Assembly: GCA_044892525.1 (NCBI GenBank)
Contig: CM097885.1
Span: 142,724,001-142,788,000, forward strand
Source: Schmidtea polychroa
Lineage: Eukaryota
DNA length: 64,000 bases
Direction: 5' to 3'
The number at the start of each line of letters is the position of its first letter. Position 1 is the stretch's first letter. The notes beneath the pieces were generated by a model. It was not told the DNA's origin. It did no database searches and worked only from the letters and a program-made list of their open reading frames with translations. Of this stretch, positions 61,537 to 64,000 are shown piece after piece. The position numbers were made by a program, and so were the translations under genes.

Positions 61537-62130
61537 TCATAGTTCGAAGGGCTTCAAGTATAATCCTTTACCATTTTTAGTTTTACAAAGGCATCCATTC
61601 TTTAAAGATTTACATATTTTTTTTAAATCTTCTTTATCTTTTGAAGATAAAGATTCAGATGTAGAAATTTGATTTTTTAAAAAATCATTTAAACCTCTAC
61701 CTTTATAAGGATCAAGATAGAGACCTTTGCCCTGAGACTTTTGCCGACTCCCCTCATATGGATTAAGATAGAGACCCTTTCCAACGGACACTCCCCCTTT
61801 AGCTTGCCCTACCTTCTTCATTGAATCGATTTCAGTTTGTAGTTTTTCTTTTTCTAGGTCTGTCTTTTGAGATTCTTTAGCTTTTTGAACTGTAGTTGCA
61901 ATTCCTCCAGCTATTCCAGCAGCACCTGATAAACCAGCAATGATTGCAGGTATTAAAGCAGCTAATGGAAGAATGCCACCTTCTTTAGCTTCGTGGAGCT
62001 TCGCTCTAACTTGTTCTTTTACATGTTTTCCAATAAAATATTTTTTATCATCAATTACTACTGATTTATTTTTATTTGAATTTATTAATTCTTGCAAAGA
62101 TTCTTCAGTAGAGGAACTCTTCGAGGTCAT
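61537..62130 (-). CDS. Polinton core / membrane-lytic precursor (PZ-like)
   Basis: GGILPLAALIPAIIAGLSGAAGIAGGIA amphipathic segment; GKGLYLxP repeated three times. Confidence 0.8.
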   Translation of the reverse strand: MTSKSSSTEESLQELINSNKNKSVVIDDKKYFIGKHVKEQVRAKLHEAKEGGILPLAALIPAIIAGLSGAAGIAGGIATTVQKAKESQKTDLEKEKLQTEIDSMKKVGQAKGGVSVGKGLYLNPYEGSRQKSQGKGLYLDPYKGRGLNDFLKNQISTSESLSSKDKEDLKKICKSLKNGCLCKTKNGKGLYLKPFEL

Positions 62131-62145
62131 TTTATAATAAACAAA

Positions 62146-62937
62146 ATGGATACTTGGAAACCAATTTTAAATAGACATAAGAGTAAATTTAATAATAAAG
62201 TATTTCCTGATAATTTTAGATTATTAATTGTTGGTTCTTCTGGATGTGGAAAGAATGTACTTGTTTTGAGAATGTTACTTGAAGATGATTTTTTAGATTA
62301 TAATAATTTAATCTTTTATTCTACAACCATAAATCAACCAGAATTACAACTTTTGAAATGTGGATTTGAAAATAAATTAACTAAAAAAGCAATAATTGAT
62401 ATTTTTAAAAATCAACATAGATGTCCTGAAGAAGTTTTTCAACCTTGTGATATGGTTGATTGGTATAAGGAAAAGATTTTAGAATCAGATATTAGTAATA
62501 AAAATGATTATATTTGTGAAGAAGGGCAGGAGGCAATTCAAGTTTTATTCTCTAATAAACCTGAAGATGTTTTACATTGTGATTTACTTCCTAAAGATAA
62601 AAAGAATCTAGTTATATTTGATGATGTTGTTAATATGAAAAATCAAGAGATTCAAAAGAGTTACTTTACACGAGGTCGACATAATAATTGTAATGTTATT
62701 TATATATCTCAAACATATTATGCTTTAGATAAAAATTCAATAAGAAATAATTCCAATTGTTTTATATTTTTTAAATTAGATCGCCGTGATAAGAATATGA
62801 TTTATAATGATTTATTTTCAAATGTTGAACCTGATAAGAATATGTTTGATATGTTTGTTGATAATCATTGGAAAGAAAAATATAATTATATTTATTTGGA
62901 TAGAGAAGAAGCTGAAATATGGAAAAGTTTGTTTTAG
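62146..62937 (+). CDS. A32/FtsK-HerA family DNA-packaging ATPase
   Basis: Walker A GSSGCGKN, Walker B LVIFDD, FTRGRHNN..IYISQ, SIRNN. ATG 62146 is preferred over the overlapping start at 62092. Confidence 0.93.
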   Translation: MDTWKPILNRHKSKFNNKVFPDNFRLLIVGSSGCGKNVLVLRMLLEDDFLDYNNLIFYSTTINQPELQLLKCGFENKLTKKAIIDIFKNQHRCPEEVFQPCDMVDWYKEKILESDISNKNDYICEEGQEAIQVLFSNKPEDVLHCDLLPKDKKNLVIFDDVVNMKNQEIQKSYFTRGRHNNCNVIYISQTYYALDKNSIRNNSNCFIFFKLDRRDKNMIYNDLFSNVEPDKNMFDMFVDNHWKEKYNYIYLDREEAEIWKSLF

Positions 62938-62948
62938 GGCTTGTCGAC

Positions 62949-64000
62949 TTAAAAATCTGTTTTCTGTAGTTCATTATTATAAAATCTACCTAATATTTTT
63001 TCATTATTTAAATCAAAGATGCTATATGTTATTGGAGTTGTATAATGTATTTTATTTATAATAAAAATTTCATTTGTCCATTTTGCTGTGAATCCTTTTT
63101 CAAATTTATTTTTATATTTAAATATTCTTACTCGGTCACCAATTTTAAACTTTGGTTTTTCAATAACATCATTTTCAATATTTACCACTTTAATGGTTTC
63201 AGGCTTCATGGAAGCATTTAAAGGTGTTAATTTTATAGAACTATGTACATCATTATTATATTCATTTACAATCTTTTGTAACAATTCATTGTTCCATTTT
63301 TGTTTTCCAATAGCAGTAAAATATTTCCACATTTTATTTTTTAATGTTCTGCTTTTCCTTCGTTTTCTGTTGAATATAATTTAATATCATTTTCATTTAA
63401 AAACTTTGTAAAAACTTTGTTATAAAATTCTGTTCCTTTATCACACCATAAATATTTTGGGATTCTTTGATTTTCTTCAAATATATTTTCAAATGCTTCT
63501 GTAATAGAATATCCTGTTTTATTTTCTAAACATCTTGCAAAAGCAAATCTTGTATATAAATCTATTACAGTTAAAATTATTTTATATTTTTCAGGGTCTG
63601 ATGATTTGGGCATAAAGACTAAATCTGCTGACCATGTTTGATCTTTTTCATGTACTTGAACTTTTAAATATTTTTTATTTTTTCTAAATTCATGGTGTAA
63701 TTCCTTTGCATATTTTATTTCTGATTCTGTTGGGGTTTGTAAACTAGTCTTGGCTGTACTCTCGAGGGATCTTTCAATCTCTGCTTGTTCGATAGTCTTT
63801 TTATAAGCAACATCTTTTGCTTTCCTAGGAAGTCTTGTACCCATGGTGATCGGACTGTGTCCTAAGCCTATGAAAATCTTACCTTTCATTGCTAATTTAA
63901 CTAGAGCTCTTTGAATCTTTTCTTGGGTTGATGGATTTTGGATACTATTTAAATCATGTATTAAATTCACATCTGCAACATGTCTATCTCTAAGATTTGT
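62949..64000 (-). pseudogene. int: PLA2-like domain fused to an rve integrase; frameshifted by a deletion that removes the catalytic Glu
   Basis: Frame open from the window edge: TNLRDRHVADVNLIHDL..EKIQRALVKLAMKGKIFIGLG, then WSADL, VIDLYTR, CDKGTEF. STENEGKA is joined out of frame to RTLKNKMWKYFT; KPKFKIGDRVRI C-terminal domain. Confidence 0.9.

What the first reader, a model, noticed from the sequence alone, without database searches (positions are those of the whole stretch)
63700..64000. Phospholipase A2-like domain fused in frame to the integrase through a GLG linker
Seen: the integrase frame stays open to the window edge and reads TNLRDRHVADVNLIHDL...EKIQRALVKLAMKGKIFIGLG before the integrase. 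Known: R..AD..L followed by a helix ending MKxK..LGxG resembles the C-terminal half of parvovirus VP1u-type PLA2 domains, which are also found in Polinton-like viruses and aid endosomal escape. Inference: one polyprotein packages an entry enzyme and the integrase together, and the protease may separate them at GLG. The catalytic HD motif would lie just outside the window.
Basis: partly seen in the sequence, partly recalled or inferred. Interest (0 to 1): 0.7.

Follow-up and report, generated by a model that had tools for sequence, protein, structure and literature searches.

The report
Polinton integrase rides on entry phospholipase
A virus-like jumping element in this animal genome encodes a phospholipase-like domain and its integrase as one protein, and relatives link the same two domains either in frame or through a likely ribosomal frameshift, which suggests the integrase is packed into virus particles on a carrier protein and would then be cut free at a conserved glycine site, much as retroviruses package theirs.

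Summary
Confirmed and extended. The frame continues 336 bases past the window edge and holds the predicted motifs (YTGPG, HDIAY). PF08398 and rve both pass their cut-offs in one ORF. It belongs to a 15-kb Maverick/Polinton with 946-bp TIRs and a 6-bp TSD.

The fusion is not a local accident. 32 of 33 scorable own-genome copies keep the linker in frame across seven lengths, and dozens of diverged database proteins share the architecture. 95 of 106 fused records have GxG/GG at the junction, the motif type the mavirus protease cuts (PMC6048507).

New here: a related clade splits the two domains into the -1 frame, with no Met before the first catalytic Asp, slippery heptamers in 18 of 21 loci and integrase dN/dS about 0.06. 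Three other integrases are fused to the protease through GxG.

Best reading: a Gag-Pol-like way to package integrase. Cleavage, enzyme activity, frameshifting and packaging are all untested. The window's own copy is broken inside the integrase. I found no report of the fusion in nine paper searches. This scan's notes mention a PLA2-integrase gene in another genome.

The parts
52270..52275 (+). 6-bp target-site duplication, repeated right after the right TIR (L011 5348-5353, beyond the window)
52276..53218 (+). Left terminal inverted repeat, starting AGTAGT; 946 columns, 97.9% identical to the right TIR (L011 4411-5347, beyond the window)
53249..57598 (+). Protein-primed DNA polymerase B with an N-terminal C2H2 zinc finger
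   Evidence: PF03175 E 2.4e-11, zf-met E 1.5e-5
57693..58313 (-). ORF of unknown function with a hydrophobic stretch
   Evidence: no Pfam hit
58298..59308 (-). ORF of unknown function
   Evidence: only hits below cut-off
59333..60130 (-). ORF, probably the minor capsid protein (inferred from size and position; not tested)
   Evidence: no Pfam hit over cut-off
60146..60610 (-). Adenain/Ulp1-type (clan CE) cysteine protease, the likely cutter; invariant H63, D75, Q109, C116
   Evidence: 5 homologues; best PDB hits ASFV pS273R E 0.011 and adenain E 0.11, weak but aligned on the catalytic motifs
60633..61553 (-). ORF of unknown function with GxG and GG motifs near its C-terminus
61537..62130 (-). 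pX-like core-protein ORF, separate from PLA2 here; 7 GG/GxG motifs in 197 aa
   Evidence: Adeno_PX E 0.047, below cut-off
62089..62937 (+). A32-type packaging ATPase
   Evidence: PF04665 E 1.4e-8
62949..63380 (-). C-terminal part of the integrase, out of frame in this copy
63341..63709 (-). rve integrase core (catalytic D238 and D299); frame broken near 63348 in this copy
63710..63871 (-). 162-base linker from the end of PLA2 to the integrase N-terminal helix; 126-162 bases in other copies, nearly always a multiple of 3
63860..63868 (-). G157-L-G159, putative GX|G protease site; G157 invariant in 31 aligned fusions
63872..64000 (-). C-terminal half of the PLA2 domain (RxxAD helix and last helix). 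The rest of the ORF lies beyond the window edge, in L011 2001-2336: start codon at L011 2336, a zinc-finger-like segment (read from the pattern; no Pfam hit), GG motif at 2219, YTGPG at 2123, HDIAY at 2021. The major capsid gene (PF21738, E 7.4e-27) follows at L011 2366-3661 (-).

Best explanation
This Polinton family encodes one protein, [zinc-finger-like segment]-GG-[parvovirus-type PLA2 domain]-GxG-[linker]-[rve integrase], that is likely packed into the virion as a precursor and likely cut by the element's own cysteine protease at the two glycine motifs, which would free a phospholipase for membrane entry and an integrase for inserting the incoming genome.

Shown: the single ORF, the motifs, their conservation, and purifying selection on both domains. 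Inferred: catalysis, cleavage, packaging.

Relatives show what is being kept. Integrase is attached behind a GxG motif to an upstream virion-type protein in three ways: in-frame fusion to PLA2 (this element), a likely programmed -1 frameshift after PLA2 (which would give much free PLA2 and a little PLA2-integrase, as with Gag and Gag-Pol), or fusion to the protease itself.

My step odds: fusion real 0.97, PLA2 active 0.8, cut at GxG 0.7, packaging is the purpose 0.55.
For: 1) One ORF with both Pfam families over cut-off.
2) Own genome: 33 of 40 loci had both domain ends. 32 of 33 linkers are a multiple of 3, across seven lengths from 126 to 162 bases; 29 are stop-free, and 12 lack a Met. Median pairwise dN/dS in 16 copies is 0.14 for PLA2 and 0.27 for integrase.
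3) Databases: 30 of 49 hits to the PLA2 region carry PF08398+PF00665, at 48-93% identity. 25 of the best 150 representatives at 50% clustering hold both domains. More come, including clusters of 300 and 365 members and Hydra vulgaris records. Lottia gigantea gene models P0018 and P0030 read from PLA2 through GMG into the integrase start.
4) Glycine motifs: GxG/GG at the junction in 95 of 106 fused records and GG upstream of PLA2 in 58 of 69, against 11 of 1611 16-residue windows in integrase (records are not all independent and window lengths differ). Both motifs border or lie in low-confidence stretches (31-54, 159-170) around a well-predicted PLA2 domain.
5) Precedent: the mavirus protease cuts GG|X and GY|G; integrase and two fragments of a hydrolase with a GK|G site were found in virions (PMC6048507).
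6) Split clade: 21 metagenome loci (19 distinct at 90% DNA) have integrase in the -1 frame with no Met before the first catalytic Asp. 18 of 21 have an in-frame X XXY YYZ heptamer in the overlap, against 0.39 expected. Lysine control: 21 of 37 tail K-K/K-N pairs are slippery versus 1 of 57 in flanking coding DNA, p 5e-10. Integrase median dN/dS is 0.064 over 29 unsaturated of 171 pairs.
7) Protease-integrase fusions through GAG, GKG and GSG: P0117, P0127 (both match this element's protease, E about 1e-16 to 1e-15) and P0079 (protease motifs read by eye).
Against: No experiment. Many relatives do without the link: 124 of the 150 representative hits have integrase without PLA2, many starting at their own Met, and L047, L048 and L053 have PLA2 and integrase as adjacent separate genes. 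So the fusion is not required for Polinton life cycles. 11 of 106 fused records lack GxG/GG at the junction by my pattern. The residue four places before the putative cut is often Lys or Phe, which does not fit the adenovirus (M/I/L)xGx|G rule (recalled). Identification of this element's protease rests on motifs and weak PDB hits. This copy's linker has an in-frame Met (165), and other Mets lie inside PLA2, so a shorter integrase-only product cannot be excluded. In the split clade there is no consistent downstream RNA structure (z from -2.2 to +1.5). A-runs vary between near relatives (8, 9 and 10 A give frames 0, +1 and -1 in L043, L091 and L077), and the one long viral contig (L124) has an ambiguous junction. 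PMC7765992 notes that how parvoviral PLA2 aids endosomal escape is itself unclear.
Confidence: 0.55

Rival explanations
1. The protein is a polyprotein for expression economy: two neighbouring genes share one start and are separated by the protease, with no role in packaging integrase.
For: PLA2 and integrase are adjacent even where separate. The link was gained or lost repeatedly: one clade for all PLA2-linked integrases is rejected, p-AU 3e-51, 23 versus 21 rows. Polinton PLA2s end in GxG anyway, so losing a stop gives a cleavable fusion for free.
Against: A maintained slippery site that would lower integrase output while attaching it to PLA2 is hard to explain by economy alone. Fusion to the protease points the same way. 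If the protease works mainly inside assembled particles, as in mavirus, cleavage implies packaging.
Confidence: 0.22
2. The fusion stays uncut and works as one protein, with PLA2 carrying integrase and genome through or onto membranes. GxG is only the flexible end of the PLA2 fold.
For: GxG sits right at the end of the last PLA2 helix and also ends stand-alone PLA2s (GAGN-stop). Linkers can be as short as a few residues (P0013, P0026, P0031).
Against: A second GG lies upstream of PLA2. GxG also joins protease to integrase, is duplicated within several own-genome linkers, and recurs 7 times in the pX-like ORF but not in the presumed penton ORF.
Confidence: 0.13
3. For the split clade only: integrase is made by transcriptional slippage on the A-run or from a non-AUG start, not by ribosomal -1 frameshifting, or the splits are homopolymer noise.
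For: Longest A-runs are 6-10 bases, 20 of 21 loci have a near-cognate start codon in the integrase frame, there is no stimulatory structure, and two loci are +1 and three in frame.
Against: 21 of 26 clade loci are -1 (binomial p 9e-7, kin not independent). Heptamer phase is right in 18 of 21, and six loci have only A6. Heptamers are nearly absent from flanking coding DNA. 113 of 117 proteins of the clade that have GxG end within 30 residues of it (length-limited search), against 4 full-coverage in-frame long forms at 62% identity or more. The 30 bases before the integrase start are purine-rich (pyrimidines 0.32), so a splice acceptor is unlikely. Slippage would still give the same fusion protein.
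Confidence: 0.08
4. Chance read-through or assembly artefact in one decayed copy.
For: The window copy is defective elsewhere (22-base gap).
Against: The same in-frame junction occurs in 32 of 33 own-genome loci and in dozens of diverged proteins.
Confidence: 0.01

Closest known systems
Maverick/Polinton elements (Polintoviricetes; adintoviruses) with a PLA2 gene: PLA2X of Alpha adintoviruses (PMC8502044), CAP of Spodoptera Mavericks (PMC5803895), PLA2 in PMC3671162 and PMC4642659
   Same: TIRs, 6-bp TSD, pPolB, rve integrase, ATPase, protease, double-jelly-roll capsid, and a parvovirus-type PLA2 domain proposed to aid entry.
   Different: In the passages read, PLA2 is a separate gene with a C-terminal pX-like domain. 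Here its C-terminal partner is the integrase, the pX-like ORF is separate, and no chromodomain was detected on the integrase.
Mavirus virophage (PMC6048507)
   Same: Clan CE protease cutting GG|X and GX|G; integrase and a processed hydrolase present in the virion.
   Different: Mavirus integrase (MV02) and hydrolase (MV13) are separate, the hydrolase is an alpha/beta hydrolase and not a PLA2, and how the integrase is packaged is not shown in the passages read.
Retroviral Gag-Pol (recalled textbook knowledge)
   Same: Integrase C-terminal to a virion protein, predicted release by the element's protease, and in one clade a -1 slippery site setting the ratio.
   Different: The carrier is an entry enzyme or the protease, not a capsid polyprotein. 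The element is a dsDNA virus without reverse transcriptase. No stimulatory pseudoknot was found.
Parvovirus VP1u PLA2 (PMC7765992)
   Same: HDxxY catalytic motif and GxG calcium loop; PF08398; weak alignment to parvoviral capsid proteins in the PDB over both motifs (E about 0.7).
   Different: Parvoviral PLA2 is fused to the capsid protein. Here it is fused to an integrase and flanked by glycine motifs.
Predicted -1 frameshifts in adintoviruses (PMC11071296)
   Same: Proposes slippery sites in adintovirus genes.
   Different: Those concern penton C-termini and hexon-adenain fusions. The passages read do not mention PLA2-integrase.

Membership tests
Maverick/Polinton | Long TIRs with AG...CT ends and a 6-bp TSD; about 15-20 kb | tested here: met
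   946-column TIR at 97.9%, 6-bp TSD, 15,072 bp
Maverick/Polinton | Protein-primed PolB | tested here: met
   PF03175 E 2.4e-11
Maverick/Polinton | rve integrase with D,D,E | tested here: met
   PF00665 over cut-off; D238, D299, E333 invariant in A1; fold matches retroviral and MELD-virus integrases. The window's own copy is broken at the third residue.
Maverick/Polinton | [quoted passage not shown] | tested here: met
   PF04665, PF21738
Maverick/Polinton | Adenain/Ulp1-type protease | tested here: inconclusive
   Invariant H, D, Q, C in five homologues; top PDB hits are pS273R and adenain but only at E 0.011-0.14
Parvovirus-type PLA2 (PF08398) | HDxxY catalytic motif and GxG calcium loop (PMC7765992) | tested here: met
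   YTGPG and HDIAY in frame; H106, D107, Y110, D122 invariant in 31 fusions; all three motifs in 35 of 35 own-genome copies checked, which were partly chosen by this domain
Parvovirus-type PLA2 (PF08398) | Ca-dependent phospholipase activity | not testable with these tools
   needs an assay
Adintovirus PLA2X | PLA2 with a C-terminal pX-like domain | tested here: not met
   The C-terminal partner is the integrase; a pX-like ORF lies separately at 61537-62130 (weak hit)
Adintovirus as defined in PMC11071296 | Integrase with a C-terminal chromodomain | tested here: not met
   No Chromo hit at E<=1 in the L002 ORF; some other fused relatives have one
Adintovirus as defined in PMC11071296 | OTU-like domain in PolB | not tested
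   not examined
Clan CE protease substrate (mavirus type) | GG|X or GX|G motif in an accessible stretch | tested here: met
   G40-G41 and G157-L-G159, next to or in low-confidence model segments
Clan CE protease substrate (mavirus type) | Actual cleavage | not testable with these tools
   needs an assay
Programmed -1 ribosomal frameshift (related clade, not this element) | In-frame slippery heptamer in a 0/-1 overlap, with a conserved downstream frame lacking its own AUG | tested here: met
   18 of 21 loci; no Met before the first catalytic Asp in 21 of 21; dN/dS 0.064
Programmed -1 ribosomal frameshift (related clade, not this element) | Downstream stimulatory RNA structure | tested here: inconclusive
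   Only 60 bases just after the first heptamer were folded, without pseudoknots; z -2.2 to +1.5
Gag-Pol-like packaging | Fusion product present in particles and processed at maturation | not testable with these tools
   needs virion proteomics

The most novel reading that the evidence does not exclude
Animal Polintons have repeatedly evolved a Gag-Pol-like system. Integrase is loaded into a DNA virion by being hung, through a protease-cleavable GxG site, on a virion protein (PLA2 or the protease), and one large clade tunes the PLA2:integrase ratio with a programmed -1 frameshift. This would be direct genetic evidence that Polintons are built for particle-based infection with integration straight after entry.
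Probability: 0.45. Interest if true: 0.8.

Novelty: new variant of a known kind. Interest (0 to 1): 0.64.

Why it matters
No Maverick/Polinton virion has been observed (bioRxiv 10.64898/2026.06.19.733378, passage), and whether these elements spread as particles or copy within the cell is a long-standing question. An integrase kept under selection as a cleavable passenger of an entry enzyme makes most sense if it must arrive in a new cell with the genome. The claim is testable with a small protease assay, a frameshift reporter and proteomics. It also matters for annotation: in the split clade, an ATG-based ORF call starts the integrase after its first catalytic Asp (as in L124) and would make it look dead.

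Tried and rejected
Viral contig collection: alignment A1 found nothing; the L061 PLA2 found one locus, L124. Prokaryote genomes: nothing.

Single-sequence fold of the protease was poor (pLDDT 50.6) and its structure search was uninformative (best Z 5.3). A single-sequence PDB search gave only two unrelated weak hits. Foldseek lists for the fusion model were filled by integrases, so the PLA2 part was barely tested; one densovirus VP1 row appeared at E 8e-5, aligned part not shown.

Sequencing runs: no RNA holder listed. Four guessed-RNA contig sets cover the gene in short pieces with no GT-AG joint. This is no evidence on expression or splicing.

Splicing as the link in the split clade was considered and judged unlikely. 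A single origin of the PLA2-integrase link was rejected on one quick tree. 'Alone' labels come from protein records without DNA context; P0095, nearly identical to a fused protein, was left out of that test.

Rows dropped before the 21-locus count: L028 (-1 with a heptamer, but closer to this element's clade), L079 (no overlap; it has a Met before the catalytic Asp), L075 and L091 (+1), L083 (insertion at the junction). 7 of 40 own-genome loci lacked one domain end.

No complex prediction was sent (enzyme-substrate case). The host species was not established.

Full report
Observation. The window is G000:C1:142724001-142788000. In the adjoining DNA the frame runs on to an ATG at window-equivalent 64336 and contains YTGPG (64123) and DQAALKHDIAY (HD at 64021), with no stop. 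PF08398 (37.9 bits, cut-off 23.9) and rve (46.6 bits, cut-off 32.6) hit the same ORF. HDxxY and a GxG calcium loop define parvoviral PLA2 (PMC7765992, passage).

Context. The ORF lies in a 15,072-bp Maverick/Polinton: a 946-column TIR pair at 97.9%, AG...CT ends and a 6-bp TSD; pPolB, ATPase and double-jelly-roll capsid by Pfam; and a protease ORF with invariant H, D, Q, C whose five-sequence profile ranks ASFV pS273R and adenain first, though only at E 0.011-0.14. This copy's integrase is broken by one 22-base gap near 63348. Sister loci L002, L003, L005 and L010 have a single 472-codon frame.

The fusion is the family's normal state. Of 40 own-genome loci, 33 had both domain ends. 32 of the 33 linkers are a multiple of three, across seven lengths (126-162 bases); 29 are stop-free and 12 have no Met. 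dN/dS among 16 copies is 0.14 for PLA2 and 0.27 for integrase. A search with the PLA2 region among 257-821-residue proteins gave 49 hits, 30 with both families at 48-93% identity. Their alignment keeps H106, D107, Y110, D122, K153, G157 and the D,D,E residues invariant. Among the best 150 representatives at 50% clustering, 25 hold both domains, 124 integrase only and 1 PLA2 only. Named records point to a mollusc, a cnidarian and a spider, though these are automatic gene models. Of 80 metagenome loci, 27 have the PLA2 end and the integrase start in one frame.

Glycine motifs. 95 of 106 fused records have GxG or GG at the junction, and 58 of 69 have GG shortly before the PLA2 domain, against 11 of 1611 windows inside integrases. 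Records include members of the same clusters, and window lengths differ. In the model (mean pLDDT 75.5, pTM 0.43) G157 ends the last PLA2 helix, and residues 31-54 and 159-170 are low-confidence. The mavirus protease cuts GG|X and GY|G, and mavirus virions hold integrase and two fragments of a hydrolase with a GK|G site between them (PMC6048507, passages). This makes cleavage at both motifs likely but not shown.

A second way to make the same protein. Twenty-five metagenome loci have PLA2 stopping shortly after GxG, with the integrase in another frame: 23 in -1 and 2 in +1. I set aside L028, L079 and the two +1 loci. The remaining 21 (19 distinct at 90% DNA) have no Met before the first catalytic Asp, and 18 have an in-frame slippery heptamer (T TTA AAA, A AAA AAC/G/A) in the overlap, against 0.39 expected. 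This is not just lysine richness: 21 of 37 tail K-K/K-N pairs are slippery versus 1 of 57 in flanking coding DNA. The downstream integrase is under strong purifying selection (median dN/dS 0.064, 29 unsaturated of 171 pairs). At protein level, 113 of 117 GxG-bearing relatives end within 30 residues (limited to 106-338 residues), while only 4 full-coverage long forms at 62% identity or more were found. Against this: no consistent downstream structure, near-cognate starts in 20 of 21, A-run length that varies between close relatives, and an ambiguous junction in L124. A third layout, separate genes with their own ATG, also exists (L047, L048, L053). Three integrases are instead fused behind a protease through GxG.

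History. On integrase trees this element sits in an all-fused clade (SH-aLRT 99). The split forms sit in another clade (95) with a few in-frame members, and further fusions are scattered among stand-alone integrases. Holding 23 PLA2-linked rows together is rejected (p-AU 3e-51). The link was therefore gained or lost repeatedly; direction is not established without a root and DNA context.

Mechanism. I commit to a packaged precursor. PLA2, thought to be a virion protein (PMC4642659, passage), likely carries integrase into the particle. The protease would cut at GG and GxG during maturation. PLA2 would help the genome cross a membrane, and the integrase would insert it. The frameshift version would give the Gag/Gag-Pol-like ratio. 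Shown: ORF, motifs, conservation, selection. Inferred: activity, cleavage, frameshifting, packaging. The rivals are expression economy (0.22), an uncut bifunctional protein (0.13), other recoding or noise in the split clade (0.08) and artefact (0.01).

What is known. PLA2 genes in Polintons are known as separate genes (PMC8502044, PMC5803895, PMC3671162, PMC4642659, PMC11296320, bioRxiv 10.64898/2026.06.19.733378; passages only). PMC11071296 predicts -1 slips for penton and hexon-adenain only (passages). PMC11161782 and PMC12220804 passages show no such fusion. Nine searches turned up no report of a PLA2-integrase fusion or frameshift. I read no paper whole. The one supplement file searched (PMC8502044, cut when stored) showed PLA2X and integrase as separate labels; genome-map figures, preprint supplements, Repbase entries and subscription papers were not visible and could hold an earlier mention. 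The retroviral and adenovirus comparisons are recalled. Notes of this scan mention a PLA2-integrase gene in Polintons of another animal genome; these are unchecked and not counted as support.

Verdict. The finding is real and conserved, and it is a new variant of a known kind. The element is an ordinary Polinton; the recurring, likely cleavable and sometimes frameshifted attachment of integrase to a virion protein is the interesting part. Interest 0.64.

Noticed in passing
L059-L093 (metagenome loci); P0220-P0339: Large Polinton clade with DUF5679-PLA2 ending in GxG plus a short basic tail, and integrase in the -1 frame behind slippery heptamers; likely programmed frameshift.
   Followed up: yes
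P0117, P0127, P0079: Adenain-type protease fused in frame to integrase plus chromodomain through GAG, GKG or GSG. Protein records only, no DNA context seen.
   Followed up: partly
L021:2182-3513 (-): Protease and pX-like protein lie in one 444-codon frame, a further possible polyprotein.
   Followed up: no
L117, L118 (1471 onward), L094, L095: Other PF08398 copies in the own genome start long non-integrase ORFs (1130 codons for L117/L118), with an upstream helicase-like ORF in L117; probably parvovirus-like endogenous elements.
   Followed up: no
own-genome loci L100, L104, L108, L109, L114, L115: The GxG motif is tandemly duplicated at the start of the linker in several subfamilies.
   Followed up: partly
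window 61537-62130 and L124:7749-8363: The pX-like ORF carries repeated GxG-L-Y-L motifs in both distant elements, candidate protease sites.
   Followed up: no
window 57693-58313 and L124:7203-7736: Similar-looking small ORF with a long hydrophobic stretch in both elements; no Pfam hit for the window's; possibly membrane-active.
   Followed up: no
G000: The element is very abundant and recent: 1065 first-look candidates for a 601-base query, and all 40 scored are listed at 100% (rounded) identity over the full length.
   Followed up: no
L083: An insertion sits at the PLA2/GxG junction in one metagenome locus.
   Followed up: no
P0038, P0343: In-frame PLA2-integrase fusions whose integrases group with the separate-gene type (L053), suggesting an independent fusion.
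   Followed up: partly
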